The notes below the pieces were generated by a model. It worked only from the letters and a program-made list of their open reading frames with translations, ran no database searches and was not told where the DNA came from. A stretch of 25,564 nucleotides of DNA, from IMG/VR virus record IMGVR_UViG_2778261069_000008; one strand, 5' to 3'. The stretch comes from a virus (lineage: Duplodnaviria; Heunggongvirae; Uroviricota; Caudoviricetes). Shown here piece by piece: positions 2,858 to 16,739 of the stretch (positions within the stretch are counted from its first letter, which is position 1; each line of letters opens with the position of its first letter). A program made the translations under genes and the position numbers.

Positions 2858-2933
<76 letters not shown>

Positions 2934-2935
2934 AC

Positions 2936-3012: not shown

Positions 3013-3013
3013 T

Positions 3014-3208: not shown

Positions 3209-3233
3209 CAAAAAAACCCGCTTGTGGGCGGGT
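3209..3233 (-). terminator. tR'-like rho-independent terminator downstream of the late promoter
   Basis: On the minus strand CCCGCCCACAAGCGGG hairpin followed by a 7-U run; lies about 60 nt downstream of the candidate pR' and upstream of the tRNAs and lysis genes. Confidence 0.6.
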
Positions 3234-3287
3234 TTTGTTTGCTTTTGCCATCACGTACAAAATCGGCAAAATATCAGATTTGCATGA

Positions 3288-3316
3288 AATATATGCCTTT
3301 CAATCTACTTTTGCAA
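3288..3316 (-). promoter_or_regulatory. Candidate late promoter pR' (sigma-70 type) overlapping the 3' end of the Q-like gene
   Basis: Minus strand TTGCAA - 17 nt - TATATT; position just after Q and before the terminator mirrors the lambda pR'/qut/tR' arrangement. Confidence 0.4.
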
Positions 3317-3995: not shown

Positions 3996-4351
3996 TCCAG
4001 TTCTGTGATTTTTATCCCCAGCCGCCCACCAGGAACGAGCTGACCGCGCACAATATTGATTTCATCAAACTGCTCGTCGTCTATGAGAAGTCCGGCATGC
4101 GTCAGCGCATCCAGTGGTGCTTTCAGGATATTGTCCAGGTCACGACGGCGCTTATCCGGTGGCTCTGCAATAATCTTTATCGCCAGCCTTCCGGACAGGT
4201 TTAATTTCAGCCGCTGCTGGCGAACAATTAGCGCCACATCACGGCGATAACGCTCACCGACTTTTGATACAAAATATGTGTTGCCACGACGTCGCCAGTA
4301 AGTATTCACCGTCGGCGGGTAAGGCAAAACAAATTCTATGCGTTCAGTCAT
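3986..4351 (-). CDS. rusA: RusA Holliday-junction resolvase
   Basis: 121 aa, MTERIEFVLPYPPTVNTYWRRRG...RRDLDNILKAPLDALTHAGLLIDDEQ, characteristic RusA sequence with the catalytic Asp-rich segment. Confidence 0.85.
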   Translation of the reverse strand: MTERIEFVLPYPPTVNTYWRRRGNTYFVSKVGERYRRDVALIVRQQRLKLNLSGRLAIKIIAEPPDKRRRDLDNILKAPLDALTHAGLLIDDEQFDEINIVRGQLVPGGRLGIKITELECA

Positions 4352-5407
4352 TCATGCTTTCCACTTCAGGACACCCGAATTTCTCGCGTGCATTAAAAAA
4401 CGAATCAGCAACAACAGCTGGCTGCCGTGTTTTTCTTCAAAATCTTTTACCCCGGCGTGCAGTTCGTTATGACATTTGCGGCACAGCGGAATAACAAACA
4501 AATCATCAGCCTTTGTTCCCATCCCTCCCAGTCCATGACCAATGATGTGATGCGGATCATCTGCCTGATTACCGCACGTCATGCATTTCTGCGTTTTTAC
4601 CCAGCGCGTGTATACAGGCATCTCTTCCCGTTGTGGTTTCTGGCGCTGGAGATACTGAGCCGGTGACTCCGGATCAACGGCAATGCTGACCACCGTCTTT
4701 TCCTGTGGCGGGTTTTGCTGGTGGGCGTGAGGCAGCGGCGCAAGATTTTTTGTGCGCTGCTTCAGTATGCTGGTGGCGGTCTGCTCTCCCGGTACGATGT
4801 CGCTTTCACGGTACATTGAGCGGATTTTTTCCGCACGCAACCCCAGCGAACGACGTAATACCGCTTCCGGTAGCGCGTCCGCCACCTGATTGCGGACCGC
4901 CCACCAGGATAATTCAGCCAGAGATAATTCACGCTCCTGCGTACCGCTTATTGCGTGACCGATGGCGTCAATCATCCATGCTGACAGGTTTTGATGAGCA
5001 AGTTGCTCGAGTGATTCGGATGTCTGGTCACGCAGCTGGTTGTCGCAGTGCCAGCACAACACCATTGCGCCGGTACCATAACGGTGAATGACGGTTTCGC
5101 TGTGATGATAATCGCCGTGTGGCCACTGGCAGGATTTAATATGGCGCAACAGCCAGTCAGACAATGCACCAGCACCACCAGCAGCACGAATCACCCGTGC
5201 GTTACTGAAAAACGGCAGCAATGTTTTGTCTTCCACCAGCGGCTGGCGAACGGCAGGAACGACCCCGGACGGCAGATTACGCATGCTTTTCGGTTCCGGC
5301 TCCACCAGCACTCGAGGATTGTGAAATACCTGCATGGATTCACGACCTGGCTTAAGGACCACCAGCCCGAGTTCCGGTACCAGAACAGGTCGAAGTAATA
5401 CCCGCAC
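4352..5407 (-). CDS. DUF968-like prophage protein with C-terminal HNH-type Cys/His motif (YdfU-like)
   Basis: 351-aa ORF (GTG start in the track; true start may be internal); C-terminus CMTCGNQADDPHHIIGHGLGG...LCRKCHNELH; size and position match Qin YdfU-type proteins as I recall them. Confidence 0.55.
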   Translation of the reverse strand: MRVLLRPVLVPELGLVVLKPGRESMQVFHNPRVLVEPEPKSMRNLPSGVVPAVRQPLVEDKTLLPFFSNARVIRAAGGAGALSDWLLRHIKSCQWPHGDYHHSETVIHRYGTGAMVLCWHCDNQLRDQTSESLEQLAHQNLSAWMIDAIGHAISGTQERELSLAELSWWAVRNQVADALPEAVLRRSLGLRAEKIRSMYRESDIVPGEQTATSILKQRTKNLAPLPHAHQQNPPQEKTVVSIAVDPESPAQYLQRQKPQREEMPVYTRWVKTQKCMTCGNQADDPHHIIGHGLGGMGTKADDLFVIPLCRKCHNELHAGVKDFEEKHGSQLLLLIRFLMHARNSGVLKWKA

Positions 5408-5408
5408 G

Positions 5409-5816
5409 TTACCTCCAGATTCGTTGCTGGAATGTGCGGGACGGACGCGGTGGGCGTTCGGAGTAAGGAAGCCTGACGGAGATTATCCAGTGACGATAAT
5501 CGAGGCTGAGGGCTTTCTTAACCTCGTATCCGCGCCTGCGGTAACACTGAATTATCCATTCAGCCTGCTCTTCAGTGCATGGAGGATGCTGGAACCAGTC
5601 CGATTTGAATGCGTGAAAACGCCGTCCACACCTGCTGGCAAAGACGGCAGAATCATCAGAATAGTGTAATTTGGTATCGTGCGCCATCGGCTGTCTCTGC
5701 TGGCGCAGCAGGTGCCAGTTGTTCAGGCTGGCGTGCGAATTGTAAACCAGAATGCCAGGAAAAAACAAAACCCGCCGAAACGGGTTAAGTGCGGGTGCGT
5801 TGAGGATGCCTGACAC
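5409..5816 (-). CDS. Hypothetical nin-region protein
   Basis: 135-aa track ORF with non-ATG start; a plausible internal ATG start gives 92 aa (MAHDTKLHYSDD...); Cys/His-containing, no family recognised. Confidence 0.4.
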   Translation of the reverse strand: MSGILNAPALNPFRRVLFFPGILVYNSHASLNNWHLLRQQRQPMAHDTKLHYSDDSAVFASRCGRRFHAFKSDWFQHPPCTEEQAEWIIQCYRRRGYEVKKALSLDYRHWIISVRLPYSERPPRPSRTFQQRIWR

Positions 5817-5854
5817 ATCAAAGGTGGCGAGGGATTTCTCCCTCGCCTGGTCTC

Positions 5855-6010
5855 TTACTCCTCAGGTTCGTAAGCTGTGAAGACAGCGACCTCCGTCTGG
5901 TCGGTTCGGATTCGTACCTCGCAGAGGTCTTTCCTCGTTACCAGTGCCGTCACTATGACGGTTAAACAGATGACGATCAGGGCGATTAACATCGCCTTTT
6001 GCTGCTTCAT
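5855..6010 (-). CDS. hok: Hok/Gef-family type I toxin
   Basis: MKQQKAMLIALIVICLTVIVTALVTRKDLCEVRIRTDQTEVAVFTAYEPEE, 51 aa with a single TM helix; matches HokD/RelF as recalled; the track ORF carries a 19-codon in-frame upstream extension. Confidence 0.85.
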   Translation of the reverse strand: MKQQKAMLIALIVICLTVIVTALVTRKDLCEVRIRTDQTEVAVFTAYEPEE

Positions 6011-6422
6011 AGCCTGCTTCTCCTTGCCTTTCGGCACGTAAGAGGCTAACCTACATGTGTCTAGCATGAAATTGGCCTCAGATTAATGTTAAGCGTCTTG
6101 CAGGACGCGTAATGTTAACTGGGGCTTTTCTCTATCTGCCGTTGGTGTTCATGCCCGAGGCAGATAGCCTCAAGCACCCACAGCCATTCTACTTAACTAC
6201 CGTTACCTCGCCAATATGAAATCAGTCAGAAAGGCGATCCATAAGAACAACAGCAAGGCAATAAATTGCCATTACAGCAGCAATAGCCAGCGCACATTTC
6301 AGAACCAGCACAATGACCTCCCACATTTGACGTACACGTGCATGATTCAATATGTGGCAACCTCCTCCTTGCTTCAATGTAAAATCAAGTATTGTTGTAT
6401 AACTATTTAACCAACTCCCTAT

Positions 6423-6466
6423 CCCCGCATCTCAGGCGCCCAACTTATGTGTGCGGGGCGTTTTTT
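6423..6466 (+). terminator. Plus-strand terminator-like hairpin with T-run
   Basis: CCCCGCA...TGCGGGG arms followed by CGTTTTTT; long loop, so weak; could terminate a plus-strand antisense (Sok-like) transcript. Confidence 0.35.
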
Positions 6467-6472
6467 AATACC

Positions 6473-6556
6473 TTACCCCCAGCGGCAAATCAAATACACC
6501 ACCAGCGCCACCGCCAGTGCAATACCTACTGTTGTGAATGCCTCAGGCCAGCTCAT
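6473..6556 (-). CDS. Candidate 27-aa hydrophobic small protein
   Basis: AAGGAGG 7 nt upstream of ATG; MSWPEAFTTVGIALAVALVVYLICRWG is a single predicted TM helix; immediately downstream of the DUF551 gene; below the track's ORF size cutoff. Confidence 0.3.
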   Translation of the reverse strand: MSWPEAFTTVGIALAVALVVYLICRWG

Positions 6557-6560
6557 TGAT

Positions 6561-6908
6561 TCACCTCCTTCGTGGTTCTGGTAGCGGCATCCAGTCGGTT
6601 ACATTGCGGCTCTGTGTTTCAAAAAATTCATTACCATTGCGGACAATATCGAAAAACTCACCGTCTCGATATTGCGCATGAAGAACGAATGCGCCATCAC
6701 ATAAAATAATTACGTGCTGACCATCACCTGGCATTCGCTCACTACAGCTTATCCAACCGCCCGAAGTTACCGGAGAGTTGCCAGTCTTACGCATGGCAAT
6801 CTCCACGATTTCAACCATATCTCCTGGTGGAATTTTACAGTGCTGACCCAAATGCCTCTGCTGCCAGGCATACTCAAGGATGTGCTCCAGTTTGGTTCGA
6901 TTAATCAT
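6561..6908 (-). CDS. DUF551-like phage protein
   Basis: 115 aa ending ...VTDWMPLPEPRRR, the C-terminal WxPLPEP signature I associate with DUF551. Confidence 0.6.
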   Translation of the reverse strand: MINRTKLEHILEYAWQQRHLGQHCKIPPGDMVEIVEIAMRKTGNSPVTSGGWISCSERMPGDGQHVIILCDGAFVLHAQYRDGEFFDIVRNGNEFFETQSRNVTDWMPLPEPRRR

Positions 6909-7312
6909 GATTTATCTCCCTTAAGCATGGCTGCACGACAGGCCTCTTTGAGCACCCAGTCAACCGCGTCTTTCCATGCTCCGGTTTCGACTGGCGGATT
7001 TTCACGCTTAACCTGTTCATAGAAACGCACTGCTTTAATCAATCCTTCTGGTGTCAGTGACACAGGTGTAGCGGTGAATAGAGGTTTAGGTGTTATCTCT
7101 GCACGTTTTGCGTATGCTTCAACTGTGTCAGGATTAAACAGGATTATGTTTTCGCCGTATTCCCACGCTATCGGCTCTGCTTCCAGCGATGCCAGAGCAA
7201 TTTTGAATAACTCACCCTCTACTCGTGCCACCCCTGAATTGGGGTGGCATTTCGCAATCGCTATTTTTAATTTAGCTTCTTCGATTAATTGCTCTTTTGT
7301 TAATTCAGTCAT
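6905..7312 (-). CDS. Hypothetical phage protein
   Basis: 135-aa ORF with ATGA overlap to the downstream gene; co-oriented in the nin-like operon; no family recognised. Confidence 0.5.
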   Translation of the reverse strand: MTELTKEQLIEEAKLKIAIAKCHPNSGVARVEGELFKIALASLEAEPIAWEYGENIILFNPDTVEAYAKRAEITPKPLFTATPVSLTPEGLIKAVRFYEQVKRENPPVETGAWKDAVDWVLKEACRAAMLKGDKS

Positions 7313-7470
7313 TTTTCATTACCGCCCTTTCGGGCGGCCTCCTGATGTTTTGAGGGTGCAGGAATCCCTCCTGTTAAGGATTAAATTTTATTTACAGTGC
7401 TGAGATTAATTATTCAGATTTGAATTATGTTTTCTCTTTCACTTCACGCAGTCCCGATTGTTAATTTGGC

Positions 7471-7887
7471 TCACAGTACCACCTCCTGCAAACTTCCCTT
7501 CCAGAAAGCCAGCACGCGCTGCATAGTTTCGCTCTGACGGCACTCTCGGCAAATTATGTTCTGTCTCCTGTTGTAACGGCGTATCTCGCTATCTGGCAAT
7601 GAATAAACCAGGTCGGGGTCGTTCTTCTTTTTCACTGCCGCTCTCGACATTTTTTTGCAGGCTTTTATCCAGTCCTTACGAGCCTGTTCTGAAGGAAATA
7701 TTCCATGGCCTGAACCATATAGCGTGCCACTAACTACCAGCTCTTTCGCCAGAACTTCTATCAGGTGTCTCGTTGCTCCGGTTTCATCCTCCAGTTGCTT
7801 ACGTGTTTTCCTCCCATCTCTGCGCACCAGTTCCACAATACGCGCCTTCAGTTGCTCCCGATATTCAGGTGTAAAAACGTTTCTCAT
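7471..7887 (-). CDS. Hypothetical phage protein (start trimmed to internal Met)
   Basis: Track ORF 7471..7944 overlaps the upstream gene by 50 nt; internal start MRNVFTPEY at 7887 avoids the overlap; contains CRECRQ Cys pair; no family recognised. Confidence 0.45.
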   Translation of the reverse strand: MRNVFTPEYREQLKARIVELVRRDGRKTRKQLEDETGATRHLIEVLAKELVVSGTLYGSGHGIFPSEQARKDWIKACKKMSRAAVKKKNDPDLVYSLPDSEIRRYNRRQNIICRECRQSETMQRVLAFWKGSLQEVVL

Positions 7888-7894
7888 AAGTGCC

Positions 7895-8656
7895 TCACCT
7901 TTCCGACACAACGCGACTGGAGGAATCGACAATCTGTCGGACAATATCCCGGTGTTTATTCAGCTCCCGCAGCGCGGCGCAGACGCGCTCCCATTTCTGG
8001 ACATGATTTTTCGCCCGGCGCAGTTCGCGGTTTGCCAGATGCAGCGATGGTAAAATCAGGTCATCCGCCCGCGTTTCGGTGAACGATGGCAGCGACTGCA
8101 CAATGTCCGCCACAGTTTCTGTTTTAATTTCTTCCTGTGTTACAGCTTCCTGTGCTGGTAACGCAACACCTGCTGGCTGAGGAAAGGCTTTACCATCAGT
8201 TTCCGTTACCAATGCGGCTTTCGGCTCTGCTGGTAAATTATCGTCCGGCATGCAGTAACGAAATTTACCGTTCTGATTTACGCGAATCAGGCGACCTTTG
8301 CTGATTGCCTGAGCCAGCGTTGAAGCCACTTTGCGTGATGTGATACCGAACAGCGTAGCCAGCTCATCAGCCGTTTGTGGTCCGCGTTGTTCAATCGTCG
8401 CGGTTAAATCGCACTCTGAGATTTTCGCTACTGTTGCCGTGGTAGTTTCTTCATGAAATTCAGCCCGGGATGCTTGTTCCTGCTGAGCATTGCTACCAGC
8501 CACACGCCAGGTGTACGCGGTTTTATCAACGAAACCAGATTTTTTCAGTTCCCACAGCTCATTCAGTACCTCTTCACGACTGATATCAAGTCGCGCAGCA
8601 AGTTCTATGGATGTGGCTTTTCCCATTGCTTTCAGTGCGTCAAAAACAGTCTCCAT
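7895..8656 (-). CDS. Hypothetical protein with two predicted winged-helix-like segments
   Basis: 253 aa; N-terminal [30 protein letters not shown] and central [32 protein letters not shown] resemble DNA-binding wHTH units; sits between replication and nin-like genes. Confidence 0.5.
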
Positions 8657-8679
8657 TAAATTTTTTCTCCCGGTAAAAA

Positions 8680-9426
8680 TTACTTCGTGATTCCTGGCTG
8701 GACGACATTCTGGCGCCAGCTTTCCCAGTTAAAAGTCACCCAGCGCCCGCCGTTCATGGTCATGCGATCCATAATCCTCTCGCCGAGCAACGTTTTCATG
8801 GCCTCATAGTTCAGGTTTGTCAGCATCCCCATACTGCGCATCGATGCTGTCCGGCGATCAACAATCTGATGCAGCACCACCTGCTCGTTTTTCGTCTCAC
8901 GCTGAATGCCAATTTCATCAAGAACCAGCAGATCCACTTCGCACAGTTCCCGCAAAAATTTTTCGCCTGACTGCCCGTCGTCATAGCTGGCGTGCAGGGC
9001 ACTCATAACATCAGCCACAGTAACCACTATCACTGTCTGGCCGTCTTTCAGCAGGCGATTCCCGATAGCCGCCGCCAGATGGTTTTTTCCGGTACCAGGT
9101 TTTCCGCTGAACGCGAAATTTGTGCATCCGGTCATCAGTTCATCAGCGATGGATTTCGCCTGACTTAACGCGTATCGCTGGCCGTCGTTCTGTACATGGT
9201 AATTCGCAAACGAGCATTTACGGTGCAACGGCTGGATGCCTGAGCGATTCAGAATTTTTTCCACCCGCAACTGGCGATTCAGGCGGTTGATCTCCTCGCT
9301 ACGCTTCTGGCCTTCAGCAAGTTGCCACTCGCGCCACTCCGCTACCGTTCTGAATGGGGCGGTTACATGTAGCGGGGTCAGTCTGCGGATACGATCCAGA
9401 ACGCCGCCTGTCGCAATATTTTTCAT
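8680..9426 (-). CDS. DnaC-like helicase loader / replication protein (IstB-like AAA+ ATPase)
   Basis: 248 aa with Walker [16 protein letters not shown] and Walker B LLVLDEIG; directly downstream of the O-like gene; same size as Rac YdaV. Confidence 0.8.
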
Positions 9427-9432
9427 GGTTCG

Positions 9433-10395
9433 TTACCCCCTGAACCCCGGCGGAATTTCGGTGTCCGGTTCAGAAATATGATTCACACAACGCTGTACAG
9501 GCGAACGCCCCAGGCGGATAACCAGTTCATCCCATTTTTCGCGAAGCTTTGACGGGCTCATGATGTTTTTTACCCAGAATGGATCCCGCTGTACCCGTCC
9601 AAACATTTCGCAAATTTGTCTGTGAGTTCTGCCATCCAGCATCCGCATTGTGCGCACGTCATTGGCCCACGCGGTCCAGTTTGGTTCTTTCGGTCGCGTG
9701 ATCTCGCCATCATCGCTGGCCGCCTGCTCGTAAAGACTCACGATTCGTCCCCAGATCCACTGTGCGCACGCCAAATCTTCCTGACTTCCCCACTGGCGTT
9801 TTTTCGCACTGAACACAACCGCATCAGGGTGTCGGGTTAAAAAATCCTGTTCAGCCGTCTGCGGGTCCGGTTGCGAAGCGTCCGGACAAGAAGATCTTTT
9901 ATCTGACGGATCAGATTTTAATACTGACGGATCGGGGTCAATCATCGCCCCCCTAACCGACCGTTTTTTATCAACGGTTGATCCATCAAAATTTGACGGG
10001 TCAACCGTTGAGGGGTCAATATTTGACGGGTCAACCGTTAACGGGTCATTTTTTGCCGGGCTAATTTTTCTTTTCGGTTTATATGCCTCTCGCGCCGCCG
10101 CTGCTGCAGCTTCGAGTTTTTCCACATTAAGCCGGTAGATATTGCTTACGTTACGTCCGCCAACCTTACGCTCTTCCTTTGTCAGCCAGCCGCTCTTTTC
10201 CAGTTCCGCTATCGCCGCTTTAACCGTTGATTCACTCTTTGCCCCAATCTGACGACGAATGGTCTCTACTGCAGGCCATGACACACCTTCATCATTGCTG
10301 TAGTCTGCAAGACGAGCCATCACTGCCACCCTGGATAAGATCATGCCGGTGAAGGCACACCCTTCCCAGACAAGACCATGAAGCTTGCTGCTCAT
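9433..10395 (-). CDS. Replication initiator (lambda O-like) carrying origin iterons
   Basis: 320 aa; N-terminal HTH-like region; central repeated peptide DPLTVDPSNIDPSTVDPSNFDGSTVD encoded by DNA iterons; followed by the helicase loader. Confidence 0.7.
   Translation of the reverse strand: MSSKLHGLVWEGCAFTGMILSRVAVMARLADYSNDEGVSWPAVETIRRQIGAKSESTVKAAIAELEKSGWLTKEERKVGGRNVSNIYRLNVEKLEAAAAAAREAYKPKRKISPAKNDPLTVDPSNIDPSTVDPSNFDGSTVDKKRSVRGAMIDPDPSVLKSDPSDKRSSCPDASQPDPQTAEQDFLTRHPDAVVFSAKKRQWGSQEDLACAQWIWGRIVSLYEQAASDDGEITRPKEPNWTAWANDVRTMRMLDGRTHRQICEMFGRVQRDPFWVKNIMSPSKLREKWDELVIRLGRSPVQRCVNHISEPDTEIPPGFRG
9900..10085. repeat. Origin-like iteron array plus adjacent AT-rich tract inside the O-like gene
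   Basis: Repeats of ATTTGACGGGTCAACCGTT (two full copies near 9991 and 10021) with partial and inverted copies nearby, followed by ATTTTTTGCCGGGCTAATTTTTCTTTTCGG. Confidence 0.6.
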
Positions 10396-10418
10396 AAAAA
10401 ACCCCGAACACCGTGCTT

Positions 10419-10844
10419 TTAGTGCATCACCACGGCATTTCCTGCCGGGCCACCGCGATTAATCTGGTTGAAACCAGCAATTGCCACCGCAATAAAATCA
10501 TCTGCATCCCTCACCAGCCGCTCCCGCGTCTCCAGCAGCTCCCGAAAATAGGCTGAACTGTGACTGCGCATTCGGGCCACCAGCAGAGGCGGCATTGCCT
10601 TTTCGATCGCAGGTAACAACGCCTGAATTTTTTTAACCGCATCAGGAGTGTCTTTCTCTACCCAGCGGAAAATTTTCTGGGTATTGCGAGCCAGGGCTTC
10701 AGGATGGCTGTTGTCGTACAGTTCAGGAAACGTCATACTCAACTCAAAATAAGCCCGGGTTATTTCAGCTGCCGGAACCTTTTCGCCATCAGGACGCGCC
10801 CAGACATTCATCGCTATGCGGATGTGTTCATGCTTGATTTTCAT
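10419..10844 (-). CDS. ydaT: YdaT-like protein of the Rac-type immunity region
   Basis: 141-aa ORF directly downstream of the ydaS-like gene; size and order match Rac ydaS-ydaT; assignment by position and recollection, not by motif. Confidence 0.5.
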   Translation of the reverse strand: MKIKHEHIRIAMNVWARPDGEKVPAAEITRAYFELSMTFPELYDNSHPEALARNTQKIFRWVEKDTPDAVKKIQALLPAIEKAMPPLLVARMRSHSSAYFRELLETRERLVRDADDFIAVAIAGFNQINRGGPAGNAVVMH

Positions 10845-10866
10845 GAATCATTTGCCTCTTGATGTT

Positions 10867-11163
10867 TCAGGTATGATCAAATGAGGATTTGTTACTGTCA
10901 TTTAGTTGCTTCACTGACATATTCTGCGAATAACATGCCGAACGTCGTAAATATGACCAGTCAATATCAGGACGAAGTTCTTCGCACAGAACGTCACCTC
11001 TTGTTGCACGTTCAATTGCTGGACATCTCTCTGCAGGCAATTGACGTACCCCTTTGATCCATTGATTTACGCTTGGAGGTGATACACCTAAAAGCCTAGC
11101 CATTGCTGATTGCCCACCGACAACAGCACAAGCTCGCTTGAATGAATAGTTCTCTTTTTTCAT
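10867..11163 (-). CDS. ydaS: Cro-like HTH regulator (YdaS-like), divergent from the repressor
   Basis: 98 aa; HTH segment QSAMARLLGVSPPSVNQWIKG; divergently transcribed from racR across an operator-bearing intergenic region. Confidence 0.6.
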   Translation of the reverse strand: MKKENYSFKRACAVVGGQSAMARLLGVSPPSVNQWIKGVRQLPAERCPAIERATRGDVLCEELRPDIDWSYLRRSACYSQNMSVKQLNDSNKSSFDHT

Positions 11164-11286
11164 CGAATGAACTCCAAAAACACACAGAGATATTAGGCGA
11201 CGCCTAATACTAATGTCAATAGGCTATGCCTAATGTAGTAAGGGTAGGGATTGCCTAATACAATGAGCATAGGAGAATATTAAGCA
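11164..11286. promoter_or_regulatory. Divergent promoter/operator region between ydaS-like and racR (OR-like)
   Basis: Three operator-like inverted repeats sharing TAGGC-N3-GCCTAAT: ATTAGGCGACGCCTAAT (11192-11208), ATAGGCTATGCCTAAT (11218-11234), TAGGGATTGCCTAAT (11245-11259); AGGAG SD before racR ATG. Confidence 0.6.
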
Positions 11287-11763
11287 ATGCTTAGTGGTAA
11301 AGACTTAGGCCGAGCAATAGAGCAGGCCATTAACAAAAAAATCGCATCGGGATCCGTCAAATCAAAGGCGGAGGTCGCTCGCCACTTCAAAGTCCAACCA
11401 CCATCAATCTATGACTGGATTAAGAAAGGCTCCATAAGTAAAGATAAACTTCCAGAATTATGGCGTTTCTTTTCTGATGTTGTTGGTCCAGAGCATTGGG
11501 GGCTTAACGAATACCCCATACCAACCCCCACCAACTCAGATACAAAAAGTGAACTTTTAGACATAAACAACCTTTATCAGGCAGCCTCTGATGAAATAAG
11601 AGCGATTGTAGCTTTCCTGTTATCAGGAAATGCTACAGAACCAGACTGGGTTGACCACGATGTTCGCGCCTACATAGCAGCGATGGAAATGAAAGTTGGT
11701 AAGTATCTGAAAGTTCTAGAATCTGAACGGAAAAGCCAGAACATCACAAAAACTGGAACTTAA
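11287..11763 (+). CDS. racR: Prophage repressor, RacR-like
   Basis: 158 aa, MLSGKDLGRAIEQAINKKIASGSVKSKAEVARHFKVQPPSIYDWIKKG..., N-terminal HTH; matches RacR in length and sequence as recalled; flanked by operator repeats. Confidence 0.7.
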   Translation: MLSGKDLGRAIEQAINKKIASGSVKSKAEVARHFKVQPPSIYDWIKKGSISKDKLPELWRFFSDVVGPEHWGLNEYPIPTPTNSDTKSELLDINNLYQAASDEIRAIVAFLLSGNATEPDWVDHDVRAYIAAMEMKVGKYLKVLESERKSQNITKTGT

Positions 11764-11858
11764 ACTTATATGGTCTGACGGAAAACTCCTGGATTCCGTT
11801 ATTTAATCCCTCCCATCACTTTTTTCATTCGCATCACCTATTGGGTTACGCCCAGAAC

Positions 11859-11902
11859 ATTAGGCAAAGCCTATTGACAATCAATTAGGCATTACCTATA
11901 GT
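11859..11902 (+). promoter_or_regulatory. pL-like early-left promoter with overlapping operator repeats
   Basis: TTGACA (11874-11879) - 17 nt - TATAGT (11897-11902); two more TAGGC-N3-(G/A)CCTA operator-like repeats at 11859-11874 and 11884-11900 overlapping the -35 and spacer. Confidence 0.55.
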
Positions 11903-12079
11903 TCCAGCATGCCACCCACCCCGCCCCACAGCACGCAGGGCAATACTTCGAGTTACCAGGCAGTGGTCAGGGGTTAAGTAGCCAGCCCGAGGCGTAAGAA
12001 CATGACGGCAGGGTTCAACTTTAACTATGCAGCAGGTTTTTGTTCCGCTACCCCGGCGTTAAGGGGAAATGAGGTCAGC

Positions 12080-12232
12080 ATGGATACTATCGATCTTGGC
12101 AACAACGAATCTCTGGTGTACGGCGTGTTTCCCAACCAGGACGGCACGTTCACCGCGATGACGTATACCAAAAGTAAAACGTTTAAAACCGAAGCTGGCG
12201 CGCATCGCTGGTTAGCAAGAAACTCTGACTGA
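12080..12232 (+). CDS. Small early-left protein (YdaF-like)
   Basis: 50 aa from the internal Met with GAGG SD: MDTIDLGNNESLVYGVFPNQDGTFTAMTYTKSKTFKTEAGAHRWLARNSD; first gene after the pL-like promoter. Confidence 0.5.
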   Translation: MDTIDLGNNESLVYGVFPNQDGTFTAMTYTKSKTFKTEAGAHRWLARNSD

Positions 12233-12243
12233 TGAGGTTGACG

Positions 12244-12882
12244 ATGGAATTTAAAGATTTACCTACTTCAATCCAGGAGATTGCAGCACACACACTTCGT
12301 CATCGTCTGAACGAACTTGCATTGGAATCGGTAACGAAAAAAGACACTGATAATATGGCTCGTAATGTGCGCGATGCGTTTACCGGATTGTATTTCTGTG
12401 CGTCTGTAAATAAACACGACTCAGAGAGTGTGGCAAATAAAATTGCAGAAACGACAGCGCAAAACATCAATACGAAACCAACGGAAGAAGAAATTGATCA
12501 GTTTGCTCATGATGCTGGTTTAAAAAACAAGAAAGAAAAATCGCCATATGCGGGGAACATGTTTGTTTATGACAATCTCATCAGAATTCGTGGCGAAATT
12601 CCGGCGGAATACCTGGCAAGAGTCCATCAGGCATTGCTTAAAAATCTGGAAACAGAATTATTTGATGGCAACACTAACGGTTTCTTCATGGTATCAGGCC
12701 TTGAGAAAGACTGGGATGCAGAAAAACGCTGGAATGTTGCTACATGGTTATTCAGTAACAGAGCCGCTGCCCTGGAAGCTTCGGCATGTATTTGCGGCCT
12801 GTTCTTAACAGACCACAAATATAATCTGGATGTGTACAGTTATATTTACGCTGAACACGGTCCGCTCTGGATTGACTGGTAA
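12244..12882 (+). CDS. Hypothetical early-left cargo protein (212 aa), unrecognised
   Basis: ORF with GAGG SD 6 nt before the ATG at 12244 (alternative ATG at 12232 overlaps the upstream stop); no TM helices or motifs I recognise; occupies the position where lambdoid phages carry exclusion genes such as sieB. Confidence 0.55.
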   Translation: MEFKDLPTSIQEIAAHTLRHRLNELALESVTKKDTDNMARNVRDAFTGLYFCASVNKHDSESVANKIAETTAQNINTKPTEEEIDQFAHDAGLKNKKEKSPYAGNMFVYDNLIRIRGEIPAEYLARVHQALLKNLETELFDGNTNGFFMVSGLEKDWDAEKRWNVATWLFSNRAAALEASACICGLFLTDHKYNLDVYSYIYAEHGPLWIDW

Positions 12883-13092
12883 TTATAAGGAAACACCAGC
12901 AGGGCCGCGGCGACCAACAGAACGATTAAAATCAATAATGCCATTATAAAGGACATTATTTAATTTATCGTCGAATGCTGATTCTGTGAGCCTCAACTCT
13001 GAATGAGTTTTTAATAACCCTGATTGCCTGAGTTGATTTACTAGGCATTCAATCTGTTTTTCAATAAGCGGATTTCTTTTTTTGTTTGGCAT
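12883..13092 (-). CDS. Small basic protein (69 aa) convergent with the early-left operon
   Basis: Strong SD GGAGG 5-6 nt before the ATG at 13092; MPNKKRNPLIEKQIECLVNQLRQSGLLKTHSELRL...; its stop abuts the stop of the 212-aa gene. Confidence 0.45.
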   Translation of the reverse strand: MPNKKRNPLIEKQIECLVNQLRQSGLLKTHSELRLTESAFDDKLNNVLYNGIIDFNRSVGRRGPAGVSL

Positions 13093-13442
13093 TTTATCCT
13101 CCATTGAGGTTCTGGGTTAAAAATGGAGACCAACACGCTGTCACGTGTGGTCGTGCGCCGGACACGGATAAGAATCCGGTACTGACAGTTTACTGAAAGG
13201 ATATATCCCTGAAAAGCCAGGGCATAACGCGAAAGCACACGGCGAAATTGGTCTCTCTGTACGGTGTCGTTAAATTTAATTCGACCGTGCGCTTCCGGTT
13301 GTGGCACTCCGCGAAATGGCGCGGCGGTAAGTATGGCGGGGTTATTCCTTCCCCGTTGAGGACACCGGGTTGTCAGGTTGACCATACGCTTAAGTGACAA
13401 CCCCGCTACAACGCCCTCTGTTATCAATTTTCTGGTGGCGTT

Positions 13443-13485
13443 TGGCGGTATCAGTTTTACTCCGTGACTGCTCTGCCGCCCTTTT
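13443..13485 (+). terminator. Terminator-like hairpin upstream of the KilR-like gene
   Basis: GGCGG...CTGCCGCC arms followed by CTTTTT; irregular stem, weak call. Confidence 0.3.
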
Positions 13486-13659
13486 TAAAGTGAATTTTGT
13501 GATGCGGTGAATGCGGCTAAGCGCACGCGGAACAGTTAAAACCAAAAACAGTGTTATGGGTGGATTCTCTGTATCCGGCGTTAATTGTTAACTGGTTAAC
13601 GTCACCTGGAGGCACCAGGCACCGCATCAACAAAGTTCATTTGTAAAAATGGAGATAAT

Positions 13660-13882
13660 TATGATTGCTCATCACTTCGGAACTGATGAGATTCCTCGTC
13701 AGTGCGTGACTCCCGGTGATTATGTTATTCATAAAGGAAGAACATATATTGCTTCGGTAAACAACATTAAAAAACAACGGCTCTATATTCGTGATTTTTC
13801 CACACAACACTGTATTAAGGAAACCATGATTAAAGTCTTCCTTGGTCGTGATGGTTTACCTGTAAAAGCAGAGTCATGGTGA
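13660..13882 (+). CDS. Small early-left protein, possibly KilR-like
   Basis: 73 aa from the ATG preceded by [39 protein letters not shown]...; size and position match Rac kilR, but the sequence identity is not confirmed from memory. Confidence 0.5.
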
Positions 13883-14005
13883 GCAGTAATAAAATAACTG
13901 CCACAATACGACATTCAGCTTAATGAATACATCAGATTTGATTCTTATATGCCAGCAATGGCAGGGATTTGTTCATCCTTAAATCTGTCATGAGGTTAAA
14001 ACAAA

Positions 14006-16477
14006 ATGAGTAAAGTCTTTATTTGCGCCGCCATTCCGGACGAACAGGCAATAAAGGAAGAAGGTGCAATTGCTGTAGCCACTGCCATTGAAGCCGGTGA
14101 CGAACGCCGCGCCCGTGCCAAATTTACCTGGCAATTCCTGGAGCAATATCCGGCTGCTCAGGACTGCGCTTATAAATTTCTTGTCTGCGAGGATAAACCC
14201 GGCATGCCCCGCCCTGCTATCGACTCTTGGGATACCGAATATATGCAGGAAAACCGCTGGGATGAGGAATCCGCTTCCTTTATTCCGGTCGAACCAGAAT
14301 CCGATCCGATGAACGTCAATTTTGACAAGCTGTCCCTTGAAGTACAGAACGCGGTCCTGGTTAAGTTCGGTACATGTGAAAACATCACCGTTGATATGGT
14401 GATTAGTGCTCAGGAATTACTGCAGGAGGACATGGCAACATTCGACGGGCATATCGTTGAGGCATTGATGAAAATGCCTGAAGTTAACGTCATGTATTCA
14501 GAGCTTAAGCTGCTCGCCATCGGGTGGGTTAAACATAAATGTAAGCCGGGTGCAAAATGGCCTGAGATCCAGACAGAATTACGCACCTGGAAAAAACGTC
14601 GCGAAGCCGAACGCAAAGAAACCGGGAAATACACGTCTGTTGTTGATCTTGCCCGCGCCAGAGTCAACCGGCAGAACACTGAAAACTCAGTAGCGAAAAT
14701 CCCCCCAGCCACTGCCACCATTCGTCGCGAATACAAGCAGACATGGAAAACACTGGATGATGAACTGGCCTACGCTCTGTGGCCTGGTGACATTGATGCC
14801 GGAAACATTGACGGCAGCATCCATCGCTGGGCAAAAAATGAAGTTATCGACAACGACCGCGAAGACTGGAAGCGTATCTCGGCATCAATGCGCAAACAGC
14901 CTGATGCCCTTCGCTACGACCGCCAGACTATTTTTGGCCTTGTCCGTGAACGTCCGATCGACATTCACAAAGCCCCTGTGGCACTGAACAAATACATTAC
15001 TGAATACCTGACTACAAAGGGCGTGTTTGAAGATGAAGGAACAAATCAGAGCGCAACTGATACTCTCTCGTCGCCAGTACCAGAAACTGATGCAGTGGAA
15101 ACGGCAATTCCGGACAACGAAAAAACCGAATGCAAAGTGGAAGTCGAACCATCTGTAGAGCGTGAAGGGCCGTTCTACTTCCTCTTCACCGACAAGGATG
15201 GCGAAAAATATGGTCGCGCAAACAAACTTTCTGGTCTGAATAAGGCGCTGACTGCAGGGGCTACTGAAATCACGAAAGAAGAATATTTTGCCCGCAAAAA
15301 CGGTACATACTCAGGTTCACAACAAAATACTGGTGCATCTGACACGACCGCACAACCAGAGCCGGTAAAAGTTACCGCTGAAGAAGTAAACAAAATTATG
15401 CAGGCAGCCAATATCAGCCAGCCTGACGCCGATAAGTTGCTTGCTGCCTCTCGCGGAGAATTTGTTGCAGGGATTAGCGACCCGAATGATCCGAAATGGG
15501 TGAAGGGGATTGAAACCCGCGACTCTGTAAACCAGAACCAGCAAGAATCGGAACAGAACGACCAGAAAACGGAACAAAACAGCCCAAATGCGCAACAAAA
15601 CGAGCCAGAAACGAAACAGGTTGAACCAGTAGCGCAACAGGAGCCGGAAAAAGCCTGCACCGCCTGCGGTCAGACCGGCGGCGGTAGCTGCCCTGATTGT
15701 GGTGCGGTGATGGGCGACGCAACATACCAGGAAATATTCGATGAAGAGAATCAGCCTGAAGTTCAGGAAAATGATCCGGAGGAAATGGAAGGCACTGCGC
15801 ATCAGCACAAGGAGAACACTGGCGGCAATCAGCATCATGCCAGCGATAGTGAAACTGGCGAGGCGTCAGATCCCTTAATTAAGGCGAACGGTCATCATAA
15901 TCTCACATCCACCAGCAGAGCGGGGATTCATCTGATGATCGACCTTGAAACCATGGGAAAAAATCCTGATGCCCCGATTATCTCAATAGGTGCAATATTT
16001 TTCGATCCGCAAACCGGAGATATGGGACCGGAATTTAGTAAGACTGTCGATCTGGAAACTGCTGGCGGAGTCATTGATCGGGACACCATTAAATGGTGGC
16101 TTAAGCAATCACGCGAAGCGCAATCTGCCATTATGACCGATGAAATCCCGTTAGATGATGCACTGTTACAATTGCGGGAATTTATCGACGAAAACTCCGG
16201 TGAATTTTTTGTTCAGGTCTGGGGAAATGGAGCAAACTTCGACAACACGATTTTGCGCCGTTCATACGAACGGCAGGGGATCCCCTGCCCGTGGCGTTAC
16301 TACAACGATCGCGATATACGCACAATCGTTGAGCTGGGGAAAGCCATAGACTTCGATGCCAGAACTGCTATCCCATTCGAAGGTGAGCGCCATAATGCAC
16401 TTGATGACGCTCGTTACCAGGCAAAATACGTTTCAGCTATCTGGCAAAAACTGATCCCGAGTCAGGCTGATTTTTAA
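14006..16477 (+). CDS. Large protein with C-terminal DEDDh (DnaQ-like) 3'-5' exonuclease domain, at the RecE position
   Basis: 823 aa; C-terminal motifs Exo I MIDLETMG, Exo II VWGNGANFDNTIL, Exo III HNALDDARYQAKY; internal CTACGQTGGGSCPDCG (CxxC-x7-CxxC); long acidic Gln/Glu-rich linker. Confidence 0.7.
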   Translation: MSKVFICAAIPDEQAIKEEGAIAVATAIEAGDERRARAKFTWQFLEQYPAAQDCAYKFLVCEDKPGMPRPAIDSWDTEYMQENRWDEESASFIPVEPESDPMNVNFDKLSLEVQNAVLVKFGTCENITVDMVISAQELLQEDMATFDGHIVEALMKMPEVNVMYSELKLLAIGWVKHKCKPGAKWPEIQTELRTWKKRREAERKETGKYTSVVDLARARVNRQNTENSVAKIPPATATIRREYKQTWKTLDDELAYALWPGDIDAGNIDGSIHRWAKNEVIDNDREDWKRISASMRKQPDALRYDRQTIFGLVRERPIDIHKAPVALNKYITEYLTTKGVFEDEGTNQSATDTLSSPVPETDAVETAIPDNEKTECKVEVEPSVEREGPFYFLFTDKDGEKYGRANKLSGLNKALTAGATEITKEEYFARKNGTYSGSQQNTGASDTTAQPEPVKVTAEEVNKIMQAANISQPDADKLLAASRGEFVAGISDPNDPKWVKGIETRDSVNQNQQESEQNDQKTEQNSPNAQQNEPETKQVEPVAQQEPEKACTACGQTGGGSCPDCGAVMGDATYQEIFDEENQPEVQENDPEEMEGTAHQHKENTGGNQHHASDSETGEASDPLIKANGHHNLTSTSRAGIHLMIDLETMGKNPDAPIISIGAIFFDPQTGDMGPEFSKTVDLETAGGVIDRDTIKWWLKQSREAQSAIMTDEIPLDDALLQLREFIDENSGEFFVQVWGNGANFDNTILRRSYERQGIPCPWRYYNDRDIRTIVELGKAIDFDARTAIPFEGERHNALDDARYQAKYVSAIWQKLIPSQADF

Positions 16478-16529
16478 TGTTCAACCCTAATTGCCGCTAA
16501 CCGTATATAGTTAGCGGCGGTTATGAGAT

Positions 16530-16739
16530 ATGGCTATGAGCAGCTTATTTTTAACCGAAGATGAATTGCTAATATTAACGGGCTGCAAATATGCAAGCCA
16601 CCAGCGAAAATGGTTAATGGAAAACGGGCTTCCGTTCTATACCAATCGTAGTGGCAAACCGATTGTCAGCCGGGATCTATTTACCTGCAATAAAACTTTA
16701 CCACCGCGCGAGGTAGAGCCGAATTTTGGTGCAATCTGA
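16530..16739 (+). CDS. Excisionase-like small protein
   Basis: 69-aa ORF immediately upstream of and overlapping (ATGA) the integrase gene; LTEDELLILTGCKYASHQRKWLMENGLPFY is typical of small Xis-like DNA-binding proteins. Confidence 0.55.
   Translation: MAMSSLFLTEDELLILTGCKYASHQRKWLMENGLPFYTNRSGKPIVSRDLFTCNKTLPPREVEPNFGAI

What the first reader, a model, noticed from the sequence alone, without database searches (positions are those of the whole stretch)
14006..16477. 823-aa protein with DnaQ-like exonuclease domain, Cys4 motif and acidic linker at the RecE slot, without a RecT-like partner
The C-terminal about 190 aa carry clear DEDDh motifs (DLETMG, NFDNTIL, HNALDDARY), whereas Rac RecE is a lambda-exonuclease-like nuclease as far as I recall. 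The protein also has a CxxC-x7-CxxC element and a long Glu/Gln/Asn-rich low-complexity segment. No annealing protein gene follows; the Xis-like gene comes next. This may be a different class of recombination or anti-defence nuclease.
Basis: partly seen in the sequence, partly recalled or inferred. Interest (0 to 1): 0.5.

Follow-up and report, generated by a model that had tools for sequence, protein, structure and literature searches.

The report
Common prophage RecE-like 3'-5' exonuclease
This is a very common, already catalogued E. coli prophage gene: a RecE-like protein whose usual 5'-3' nuclease end has been replaced by a T4 DexA-type 3'-5' exonuclease. It works without an annealing partner in a phage that appears to rely on the host's RecBCD/Chi recombination, and its exact job has never been tested.

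Summary
The ORF at 14006-16477 encodes 823 aa with an intact DEDDh domain, a CxxC-x7-CxxC element and an acidic linker. The excisionase gene starts 53 bp after it, and no annealase is found in the early-left operon.

It is not rare or unannotated:
- Full-length copies occur in 3531 of 5426 complete E. coli genomes and in phages mEp460, Tritos, HannyBb and Evi.
- It matches PHROG 2082 over its whole length.
- Tritos is the published prototype of "nuclease-only, no annealase, Chi-rich" lambdoid phages (Zheng et al. 2025). That paper also notes DnaQ-like nucleases next to int.

The Cys4 element and acidic linker are not distinctive, because K-12 RecE has them at about 80% identity. What differs is the N-terminal domain and the nuclease head.

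Heads and partners co-vary. PD-(D/E)XK heads are each followed by a RecT gene and sit in Chi-free DNA. DEDDh heads are followed directly by xis and sit in Chi-bearing DNA; this prophage has 13 Chi sites where 0.8 are expected.

Best reading: a 3'-5' DNA-end exonuclease on a RecE-type scaffold, not a RecET-type recombinase. Its biological role is still untested. Verdict: already known, modest interest.

The parts
14006..16477 (+). 823-aa mosaic RecE-family protein with a DEDDh head (whole ORF, stop codon included)
   Evidence: ORF list. PHROG 2082 matches 1-823 of 823. Database proteins are 99% identical.
14006..14620 (+). N-terminal alpha/beta domain, residues 1-205. It differs from the PF06630 N-terminal domain of Rac RecE.
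14723..15040 (+). Helical domain, residues 240-345. This is the start of the region shared with RecE (RecE from residue 278).
   Evidence: AlphaFold2, BLASTP against K-12 RecE, and NCBIfam PRK09709 matching residues 217-626.
15158..15310 (+). Small beta-alpha domain, residues 385-435, flanked by disordered segments
   Evidence: AlphaFold2 pLDDT is about 93-96. Residues 346-383 and 439-455 are below 50.
15425..15505 (+). Conserved peptide DKLLAASRGEFVAGISDPNDPKWVKG, residues 474-500. It lies at the junction where the nuclease heads are exchanged.
   Evidence: The motif occurs in at least 10 of 51 long family representatives, across different head types. In L007 homology to the query ends at residue 499 and a PD-(D/E)XK head follows.
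15503..15925 (+). Acidic, Gln/Asn-rich disordered linker, residues 500-640, net charge -20
   Evidence: Composition. AlphaFold2 pLDDT is below 50. About 80% identical to RecE residues 480-591.
15656..15700 (+). Cys4 element CxxC-x7-CxxC, residues 551-565, a possible zinc knuckle inside the linker
   Evidence: Sequence. Identical spacing in K-12 RecE. Present in only 6 of 51 long representatives. The structure model is low-confidence here.
15929..16444 (+). DEDDh 3'-5' exonuclease domain, residues 642-813. Catalytic residues are D646, E648, D746, H796 and D801.
   Evidence: Pfam PF16473 at E=7e-67. PDB 8kel, which I identify as T4 DexA, at E=1.3e-6. Alignments with DexA, EcD and the phage sal3 protein.
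16530..16739 (+). Excisionase (DUF4224). It starts 53 bp after the exonuclease stop codon, leaving no room for an annealase gene.
   Evidence: Pfam PF13986 at E=2e-15.
16739..17764 (+). Tyrosine integrase. The prophage end lies at tRNA-Ser (17817-17906, minus strand), next to mtfA.
   Evidence: Pfam PF00589, tRNA scan, and annotation of a 99.4% identical locus.
13649..13882 (+). Kil-like cell-division inhibitor, the gene immediately upstream in the same operon
   Evidence: PHROG 294 at E=2.6e-34.
11874..11902 (+). Sigma-70 promoter-like site (TTGACA-17-TATAGT, 11 of 12 matches) after the RacR-like repressor gene. It is the likely early-left promoter that drives the operon.
   Evidence: Consensus scan. 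No other plus-strand promoter-like site lies between it and the exonuclease gene. This is an inference, not shown.

Best explanation
The gene encodes a mosaic member of the RecE (exonuclease VIII) protein family. A RecE-type non-catalytic body makes up residues 1-640: two confidently folded domains, a small beta-alpha domain, a conserved RGEFVxGISDPNDPKW peptide and a disordered acidic linker with a Cys4 knuckle. Instead of RecE's PD-(D/E)XK 5'-3' nuclease, this body carries a DexA/Rv2179c-type DEDDh domain.

Shown here:
- The five metal-binding and general-base residues of the DEDDh domain are intact.
- The whole protein is under purifying selection.
- The gene is the last one before xis-int in the early-left (lytic) operon.
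- Family members with a PD-(D/E)XK head are followed by a RecT gene, and those with a DEDDh head never are.
- DEDDh-type loci carry oriented Chi sites, and PD-(D/E)XK+RecT loci carry none.

Inferred:
- The protein removes nucleotides from free 3' ends of DNA by two-metal-ion hydrolysis, as T4 DexA and E. coli EcD do.
- The N-terminal body targets it to the same substrate or partner as RecE, probably double-strand DNA ends.
- It is not half of an exonuclease/annealase recombinase. The phage belongs to the published 'Tritos-type' lambdoids, which have no annealase and no RecBCD inhibitor and are proposed to depend on host RecBCD-Chi-RecA.

Most speculative step (about 0.25): the enzyme trims 3' tails so that phage DNA ends become substrates on which RecBCD can load. 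Alternatively, it simply clears 3'-ended DNA fragments.
For: Domain content:
- PF16473 matches residues 642-813 at E=7e-67.
- PDB 8kel/8ken, which I identify as T4 DexA, match at E=1e-6.
- The catalytic D, E, D, H and D residues are conserved.
- Residues 262-625 match K-12 RecE 278-591, with about 80% identity over 470-625.
- The NCBIfam exonuclease VIII model matches only the middle of the protein.

Modularity:
- All four combinations of N-terminal type and head type exist among 1.84 billion representative proteins.
- P0129 combines K-12 RecE residues 1-450 at 94-100% identity with this DEDDh head at 97%.
- L007 has the query's N-terminal type (87% identical over residues 1-260), a PD-(D/E)XK head and a RecT gene.

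Partner co-variation:
- A RecT-family gene follows the PD-(D/E)XK head in 3 of 3 loci: Rac, L007 and L014.
- xis follows the DEDDh domain within 50-150 bp, with no RecT, in 9 loci. One of these is a standalone DEDDh gene and one is a pseudogene.

Chi sites:
- The window has 13 where 0.83 are expected. All 13 lie in the prophage part and 11 are on one strand.
- DEDDh loci have 2-11 one-strand Chi sites. PD-(D/E)XK+RecT loci have 0.

Literature:
- PMC12315714, Table 1, names Tritos as the prototype of lambdoids with a nuclease but no annealase, SSB or anti-RecBCD, and with abundant Chi. The paper also reports DnaQ-like nucleases near int.
- Tritos carries this gene at 89.5% nucleotide identity.

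Constraint: dN/dS is 0.12-0.35 in all regions.
Against: - No biochemical or genetic data exist for this protein, and the substrate (DNA or RNA) is only inferred.
- NCBI and Pfam name the domain after an exoribonuclease (Rv2179c).
- 3'-5' exonucleases usually depress recombination by destroying 3' tails, as PMC12315714 itself remarks. A pro-RecBCD role is therefore not obvious.
- The head/partner/Chi co-variation rests on about a dozen loci that I could fetch, not on a census.
- The function of the N-terminal body is unknown even for RecE (PMC11611040). No fold relative was found, so 'targeting' is an assumption.
Confidence: 0.6

Rival explanations
1. Prophage-encoded defence or superinfection exclusion of the HREX/EcD kind. 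The DEDDh head would selectively digest the modified (5hmC-type) DNA of incoming T-even phages and so protect the lysogen.
For: - EcD, a 189-aa E. coli DexA homologue, protects against T4 and digests 5hmC DNA (PMC12153337).
- I recovered an exact match to EcD's forward cloning primer in phage contigs; the ORF there is a 189-aa DEDDh protein (taken here as EcD) that is 37% identical to this domain.
- The gene is retained in 65-75% of E. coli genomes, often in several copies and under purifying selection. That fits a benefit to the host.
Against: - The two residues the paper ties to 5hmC recognition (DexA W152 and D169, which are W and E in EcD) are Y and K here.
- The tetramer residue D90, which is absent in EcD, is D here.
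- The gene lies after kil in the repressor-controlled lytic operon, and no promoter-like site of its own was found.
- EcD lacks the 630-aa RecE-type body.
- PADLOC gives only generic DEDDh matches.
Confidence: 0.15
2. A ribonuclease. The head would act on RNA 3' ends as Rv2179c does, for example by turning over or processing phage or host RNAs during early lytic growth.
For: - The Pfam family is named after the M. tuberculosis exoribonuclease Rv2179c.
- NCBI calls many copies '3'-5' exoribonuclease'.
- Related operons carry the DicF small RNA just upstream.
- DEDDh enzymes often accept both RNA and DNA; this is general knowledge of the superfamily.
Against: - The only homologues found in the solved-structure search are the T4 DexA chains, and the E. 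coli homologue EcD was assayed on DNA; both are DNA exonucleases.
- The domain is fused to the body of a DNA-end nuclease.
- The names are homology transfers, not tests.
Confidence: 0.1
3. Anti-defence nuclease. It would destroy a 3'-ended nucleic-acid component of a host immune system, such as retron msDNA or a guide or signal nucleic acid, early in infection.
For: The gene has an early-operon position and is widespread in temperate phages. From my own recollection, not checked here, Rac RecE has been linked to retron msDNA degradation.
Against: Nothing found here links it to any defence system. The neighbouring genes are kil, dicB and xis, and the literature search found no such report.
Confidence: 0.08
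4. A true RecE-like recombination initiator that uses an annealase supplied in trans, for example RecT from a co-resident Rac prophage.
For: The body is shared with RecE and the gene occupies the same slot. About 32% of E. coli genomes carry recE-recT, so a trans partner is sometimes available.
Against: - The polarity is wrong: a 3'-5' enzyme leaves 5' tails that annealases and RecA do not use.
- Complete phages mEp460, Tritos and HannyBb have no annotated annealase.
- The head and recT are exchanged as one cassette.
- The surrounding DNA is Chi-rich, the published signature of phages that use host RecBCD instead.
Confidence: 0.04

Closest known systems
Rac prophage RecE (exonuclease VIII), E. 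coli K-12 b1350
   Same: - It occupies the same slot in the early-left operon, after kil and before xis-int.
- The central region is homologous: query residues 262-625 match RecE 278-591.
- Both have the RGEFVxGISDPNDPKW peptide, the Cys4 element and the acidic linker, at about 80% identity.
   Different: - RecE has a PF06630 N-terminal domain and a PD-(D/E)XK 5'-3' nuclease head (PF12684), and it is followed by recT.
- The query has a different N-terminal domain, a DEDDh 3'-5' head and no recT.
- The NCBIfam equivalog score is 269 bits against a cut-off of 1269.
Exonuclease of phage Tritos (TRITO_27) and of mEp460, HannyBb and Evi; PHROG 2082
   Same: - Same 823-aa architecture, at 89-94% nucleotide identity.
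- Same position directly upstream of xis-int.
- These phages have 5-9 Chi sites on one strand and 2 on the other, and no annotated annealase.
- Tritos is the published prototype of the nuclease-only lambdoid class (PMC12315714).
   Different: The differences are allelic, plus a different xis/int module (DUF4224 xis and the tRNA-Ser site here). Per-segment dS ranges from 0.05 to 0.59, which shows a mosaic history.
T4 DexA (PDB 8kel) and its E. coli homologue EcD ('HREX', PMC12153337)
   Same: Same DEDDh fold family and the same five catalytic residues. These are 3'-5' DNA exonucleases encoded by phages or prophages.
   Different: - The domain is 25% identical to DexA and 37% to EcD.
- DexA and EcD are standalone proteins of 227 and 189 aa.
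- The residues equivalent to the 5hmC-recognition pair W152/D169 are Y and K here.
Standalone 3'-5' exonuclease of Salmonella phage 118970_sal3 (gp042, 189 aa)
   Same: It is the closest standalone relative of the head, at 58% identity. It also sits immediately upstream of excisionase and integrase.
   Different: It has no RecE-type body at all.
'RecE-2' proteins of Zheng et al. 2025 (RecE relatives without a nuclease domain)
   Same: They share the N-terminal and central body. Examples are P0126, P0131, P0134 and P0136, and loci L011 and L012.
   Different: Their C-terminal 250-350 aa have no Pfam match. The query has a clear DEDDh head.

Membership tests
RecE / exodeoxyribonuclease VIII (NCBIfam NF007259 equivalog) | Full-length match above the curated cut-off | tested here: not met
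   The score is 269 bits against a cut-off of 1269. Only residues 217-626 match, to model positions 241-603 of 877.
RecE / exodeoxyribonuclease VIII | C-terminal PD-(D/E)XK 5'-3' nuclease domain (PF12684 in RecE residues 615-850) | tested here: not met
   The query has no PF12684 match and carries PF16473 instead. BLASTP with the RecE head finds nothing in the query.
RecE / exodeoxyribonuclease VIII | PF06630 N-terminal domain | tested here: not met
   RecE matches PF06630 at residues 2-178. The query has no match.
RecE / exodeoxyribonuclease VIII | Adjacent RecT-family annealase gene | tested here: not met
   xis starts 53 bp after the stop codon. No RecT or other annealase is found by Pfam, PHROGs or tblastn.
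RecE / exodeoxyribonuclease VIII | Shared non-catalytic central region (helical domain, conserved peptide, Cys4, acidic linker) | tested here: met
   BLASTP E=2e-60 for query 262-625 against RecE 278-591.
DEDDh (DnaQ-like) 3'-5' exonucleases, Pfam PF16473 Rv2179c-like | Profile match above the gathering score | tested here: met
   225 bits against a cut-off of 27, covering profile positions 2-177 of 177.
DEDDh (DnaQ-like) 3'-5' exonucleases | Four acidic residues plus the general-base histidine in motifs Exo I-III | tested here: met
   D646, E648, D746, H796 and D801 align with DexA D7, E9, D119, H186 and D191.
DEDDh (DnaQ-like) 3'-5' exonucleases | 3'-5' exonuclease activity | not testable with these tools
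   This needs an enzyme assay.
HREX (DexA/EcD modified-DNA exonucleases, PMC12153337) | Trp and acidic residue proposed to recognise 5hmC (DexA W152 and D169) | tested here: not met
   The aligned residues are Y and K in the query and W and E in EcD. The alignment around D169 crosses an indel-rich region, so the Lys assignment is less certain than the Tyr.
HREX (EcD-type defence variant) | Loss of the tetramer contact residue (DexA D90, which is Ala in EcD) | tested here: not met
   The query has Asp in that column.
HREX (EcD-type defence variant) | Protection of cells against T4 | not testable with these tools
   This needs a plating assay.
'Tritos-type' lambdoids: nuclease only, no annealase, SSB or anti-RecBCD, abundant Chi (PMC12315714, Table 1) | Early-left operon with a nuclease but no annealase, SSB or RecBCD inhibitor | tested here: met
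   The operon from repressor to int lies wholly in the window. It contains DUF1391, phrog_2151 (unknown function), Kil, the exonuclease, xis and int.
'Tritos-type' lambdoids | Four or more Chi sites on the strand of late or rightward transcription | tested here: met
   There are 11 Chi sites on the minus strand, which is the strand of the replication, Q and lysis genes here, and 2 on the plus strand, within 17.8 kb. The 7.8 kb of host flank has none, and 0.83 are expected for the whole window. Only part of the prophage is in the window.

The most novel reading that the evidence does not exclude
The RecE-family body may be a general 'DNA-end adaptor' that phages equip with interchangeable heads of opposite polarity. 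Phages that bring their own annealase would use a 5'-3' PD-(D/E)XK head plus RecT. Phages that lean on the host would use the 3'-5' DEDDh head as a RecBCD helper. That head would blunt 3'-tailed phage DNA ends so that RecBCD can load and run to the phage's oriented Chi sites. This would be the first phage-encoded factor that promotes RecBCD action rather than blocking it.
Probability: 0.1. Interest if true: 0.6.

Novelty: already known. Interest (0 to 1): 0.28.

Why it matters
This gene is one of the most widespread prophage genes in E. coli. The DEDDh head is found in 75% of complete genomes, against 32% for genuine recE-recT. It is frequently mislabelled 'exonuclease VIII', which wrongly implies RecET-type recombination.

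Recognising it as a RecE body with a swapped 3'-5' head, never paired with an annealase and embedded in Chi-bearing phage DNA, has three consequences:
- It corrects the annotation.
- It fits the recently described class of lambdoid phages that depend on host RecBCD.
- It points to simple experiments on phages already in hand (mEp460, Tritos, HannyBb).

The discovery itself is not new. The function is still open.

Tried and rejected
- AlphaFold2 on residues 440-823 gave a low-confidence model (mean pLDDT 53.5). It is usable only to say that the linker is disordered and that the head has the expected beta-beta-beta-alpha core. It does not show whether the Cys4 element folds.
- PADLOC gave only generic DEDDh matches.
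- The search for related loci with a 34-sequence alignment failed for lack of conserved stretches. A narrower alignment returned only 9 loci from genome contigs, so the head/partner/Chi co-variation rests on few loci.
- tblastn with K-12 RecT alone missed the divergent RecT genes of L007 and L014. A Pfam scan of the downstream ORFs found them, and I then repeated the negative test with three RecT queries.
- Literature searches for 'Rv2179c', 'PF16473' and 'exodeoxyribonuclease VIII + DnaQ' found nothing on this protein. One search was wasted because 'RecE' matched 'receptor'.
- I considered and rejected the idea that one of the unknown ORFs is a hidden annealase (12232-12882, 216 aa, phrog_2151; or 12883-13104). 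They have no match to any annealase family, but this was not tested by structure.
- I considered that the ORF might be a decaying pseudogene. I rejected this because it is intact, has dN/dS of 0.12-0.35 and is 99% identical to other full-length copies. A Shigella flexneri copy (L010) is fragmented.
Full report
**1. The observation**

It has a GAGG ribosome-binding site 10 nt upstream of the ATG.

- The only Pfam family above its curated cut-off is PF16473 (Rv2179c-like 3'-5' exonuclease) on residues 642-813, at E=7e-67.
- The five DEDDh residues are intact: D646, E648, D746, H796 and D801. They align with the catalytic residues of T4-type DexA.
- The CxxC-x7-CxxC element lies at residues 551-565.
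- It sits inside a 140-residue linker rich in Glu, Gln and Asn, with a net charge of -20. AlphaFold2 predicts this linker to be disordered.
- The next gene is a DUF4224 excisionase that starts 53 bp downstream, followed by the integrase, tRNA-Ser and mtfA.
- No ORF between the RacR-like repressor gene (11287) and int matches an annealase family in Pfam or PHROGs. tblastn with three diverse RecT proteins finds nothing in the window.

**2. How common the gene is**

| Query | Complete E. coli genomes with a match covering at least 80% of the query (of 5426) |
|---|---|
| Whole gene | 3531 |
| DEDDh segment alone | 4048 (up to 7 copies per genome; 95-99% identical in 3923 records) |
| Canonical recE nuclease domain plus recT | 1728 |

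- The copies are annotated 'exonuclease', '3'-5' exonuclease' or '3'-5' exoribonuclease'.
- The gene is present in isolated phages mEp460, Tritos, Evi, HannyBb and PhiR42_1 and in the PPompW prophages. There it is variously called 'exonuclease' or, wrongly, 'exodeoxyribonuclease VIII'.
- PHROG 2082 matches it end to end.
- Database homologues already carry three precomputed Pfam families: PF27430, PF16473 and PF27432.

**3. Anatomy and relation to RecE**

BLASTP against K-12 RecE aligns query residues 262-625 with RecE 278-591 at E=2e-60. Identity is about 80% from residue 470 onward. That stretch includes three shared elements:
- the peptide DKLLAASRGEFVxGISDPNDPKWVKG;
- the same Cys4 element;
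- the acidic linker.

What differs is at the two ends. RecE has a PF06630 N-terminal domain and a PD-(D/E)XK head, PF12684. The query has an unrelated N-terminal domain and the DEDDh head. The NCBIfam exonuclease VIII equivalog accordingly matches only the middle of the protein, at 269 bits against a cut-off of 1269.

**4. A family with exchangeable heads**

An exhaustive HMMER search with residues 1-640 against 1.84 billion representative proteins found only 255 clusters. Mapping domains onto the long hits and onto fetched loci shows every combination:

| N-terminal type | Head | Examples |
|---|---|---|
| Query-type | DEDDh | query, P0121, P0123 |
| RecE-type | DEDDh | P0129, P0141, P0249, L044 |
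| RecE-type | PD-(D/E)XK | RecE, P0238, P0244, L014 |
| Query-type | PD-(D/E)XK | P0132, P0188, P0243, L007 |
| Either | No Pfam-recognisable C-terminal domain | P0126, P0131, P0134, P0136 and others |

- The members with no recognisable head probably correspond to the 'RecE-2' proteins of Zheng et al.
- P0129 is a recent chimera. It combines K-12 RecE residues 1-450 at 94-100% identity with this DEDDh head at 97%.
- In L007, homology to the query ends at residue 499, right after the conserved peptide. A PD-(D/E)XK head follows.
- Synonymous divergence differs up to about tenfold between segments: dS is 0.05-0.09 in the head and 0.42-0.59 in residues 1-260. dN/dS is 0.12-0.35 throughout. The gene is therefore a mosaic of segments with different histories, all under purifying selection.

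**5. The head and the partner change together**

- Every PD-(D/E)XK-headed gene I could inspect is followed at once by a RecT-family gene. These are Rac, L007 and L014 (PF03837 at E=3e-44 and 5e-42).
- Every DEDDh-headed gene is followed within 50-150 bp by an excisionase, with no RecT. These are the window, L001, mEp460, Tritos, HannyBb, L008, L044 (which has a RecE-type N-terminal domain) and the broken Shigella copy L010.
- The closest standalone homologue of the head also sits just upstream of xis-int. It is 58% identical and comes from Salmonella phage 118970_sal3.

The unit that is exchanged is therefore 'PD-(D/E)XK head plus recT' against 'DEDDh head alone'. This argues that the DEDDh form is not half of an exonuclease/annealase recombinase. 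Its 3'-5' polarity would in any case leave 5' tails, which annealases and RecA do not use; that point comes from established knowledge of these pathways. The sample is about a dozen loci, not a census.

**6. Chi sites and the published context**

The window holds 13 Chi sequences (GCTGGTGG) where 0.83 are expected. All lie in the prophage part, at 1386-16605. Eleven are on the strand of the replication, Q and lysis genes, and none lies in the 7.8 kb of host flank.

| Locus type | Chi sites |
|---|---|
| Other DEDDh-type loci | 2-11 on one strand |
| Complete phages mEp460, Tritos, HannyBb | 5-9 on the top strand, 2 on the bottom |
| Three PD-(D/E)XK+RecT loci (10-11 kb each) | 0 |

This matches Zheng, Casjens, Smith and colleagues (Genome Res 2025, PMC12315714):
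- Lambdoid phages with an annealase and a RecBCD inhibitor avoid Chi. Those without accumulate oriented Chi sites and are proposed to use host RecBCD-Chi recombination.
- Their Table 1 lists 'Tritos' as the prototype of a small group with a nuclease but no annealase, SSB or anti-RecBCD, and with 7-21 top-strand Chi sites. Tritos carries this very gene.
[quoted passage not shown] It does not count those as recombination-module members, and it remarks that such nucleases usually inhibit recombination.

**7. Relation to DexA and EcD**

The only solved-structure relatives by sequence are PDB 8kel and 8ken (E=1e-6). They are deposited as a 227-aa 'exodeoxyribonuclease', which I identify as T4 DexA. 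A 2025 NAR paper (PMC12153337) shows that DexA cuts both unmodified and 5hmC DNA. It also shows that a standalone E. coli homologue, EcD, cuts only 5hmC DNA and protects cells from T4, a strategy the authors call 'HREX'.

Using the published cloning primer, I recovered what I take to be EcD from phage contigs.
- It is 189 aa long and 37% identical to the head studied here.
- It has Trp and Glu at the positions of DexA W152 and D169, which the paper ties to 5hmC recognition. The query has Tyr and Lys there.
- The query also keeps Asp at the tetramer position, where EcD has Ala.
- EcD is itself a phage gene. It lies in an operon with a DNA methyltransferase and near an integrase.

A defence role of the HREX type is thus possible by homology. 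It is not supported by the signature residues, by the gene's position after kil in the repressor-controlled operon, or by any promoter-like site of its own.

**8. Most likely mechanism**

Shown:
- an intact DEDDh head on a RecE-type body;
- purifying selection on the whole protein;
- no annealase;
- oriented Chi sites in the surrounding phage DNA.

Inferred:
- The protein is a Mg2+-dependent 3'-5' exonuclease that acts on free DNA 3' ends during lytic growth.
- It is held by a long flexible acidic tether on a body that targets it as RecE is targeted.
- The phage relies on host RecBCD, Chi and RecA rather than on its own recombinase.

The specific role is speculative. It could be trimming 3' tails so that RecBCD can load on phage ends, or clearing 3'-ended fragments. 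I put that part at about 0.25, and the overall identity-and-mode statement at about 0.6.

The rivals are HREX-like defence (0.15), an RNA-directed activity as the Pfam name suggests (0.1), an anti-defence nuclease (0.08), and a recombinase that uses an annealase in trans (0.04).

**9. Novelty and verdict**

The sequence, the family, its annotation and its partner-less position next to int in Chi-rich lambdoid phages are all already known. What this analysis adds is small:
- The Cys4 element and linker are RecE features.
- Heads of opposite polarity are swapped on a common body at a conserved peptide.
- recT travels with the PD-(D/E)XK head.
- The DEDDh form is the commoner occupant of the 'RecE slot' in E. 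coli.

The function is still untested, so the gene is a reasonable target for simple experiments. As a scan finding it is ordinary. Novelty: already known. Interest: 0.28.

Noticed in passing
window 1386-16605 (Chi at 1386, 2182, 3169, 5175, 5233, 5302, 5359, 6499, 10577, 15909, 16598 on the minus strand; 4717 and 4769 on the plus strand): There are 13 Chi sites (GCTGGTGG) where 0.83 are expected. All are in the prophage part and none in the host flank. Eleven lie on the strand of the rightward or late genes. This is the signature of the published annealase-less, RecBCD-dependent lambdoid class.
   Followed up: partly
window 4352-5407 (minus-strand gene, PHROG 96 'HNH endonuclease' / DUF968); Chi at 4717-5366: Six Chi sites lie within about 650 bp inside one gene, four on one strand at roughly 60-bp spacing and two on the other. 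A Chi cluster also lies in the late-regulatory region (Q / DUF968 genes) of mEp460 (36926-37568), Tritos (38518-39160) and HannyBb (35321-35963). It looks like a conserved Chi cluster or a repeat that encodes Chi.
   Followed up: no
window 16493-16518: A perfect 9-bp inverted repeat (GCCGCTAAC, then 8 nt, then GTTAGCGGC) lies in the 53-bp gap between the exonuclease stop codon and the xis start codon. No T-run follows it. It might be an RNA-processing or attenuation element.
   Followed up: no
window 2780-3089 (minus strand): The prophage carries a cluster of four tRNA genes (Gly-tcc, Thr-tgt, Lys-ttt and a CAT-anticodon tRNA called Met here and Ile in RefSeq). They lie between the Q antiterminator gene and the lysis genes.
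   Followed up: no
window 12232-12882 (+) and 12883-13104 (-): A 216-aa early-left ORF (PHROG 2151) and a convergent 73-aa ORF (PHROG 4274) have no known function and no Pfam match. I did not test by structure whether either is an unrecognised DNA-transaction protein.
   Followed up: partly
loci L020, L025, L035, L038, L041 (for example L041:6404-6970, minus strand): The 189-aa protein I recovered with the cloning primer published for EcD (the 'bacterial' defence exonuclease of PMC12153337) is encoded on IMG/VR phage contigs. It lies in an operon with a DNA methyltransferase and a deoxyribosyltransferase-like gene, near regulators and an integrase. It is therefore a prophage gene.
   Followed up: partly
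proteins P0126, P0131, P0134, P0136, P0150, P0167, P0179, P0184, P0205; loci L011:7347-9620 and L012:7347-9608: Many RecE-family members share the N-terminal body but end in 250-350 aa with no Pfam match. They probably correspond to the 'RecE-2' proteins said to lack a nuclease domain. What these C-terminal regions are remains open.
   Followed up: partly
protein P0129 (805 aa); locus L044:4663-7107: These are natural chimeras. P0129 joins K-12 RecE residues 1-450 (94-100% identical) to this DEDDh head (97% identical). The L044 protein joins a RecE-type body (66-83% identical) to a DEDDh head (78% identical). L044 lies at the same tRNA-Ser/mtfA site, and there xis follows the gene directly.
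   Followed up: yes
locus L010 (Shigella flexneri SFBU0723), 7597-9668: The Shigella copy of the gene is broken into several short ORFs and is a pseudogene. The Escherichia copies inspected here (E. coli, E. albertii, E. ruysiae) are intact.
   Followed up: no
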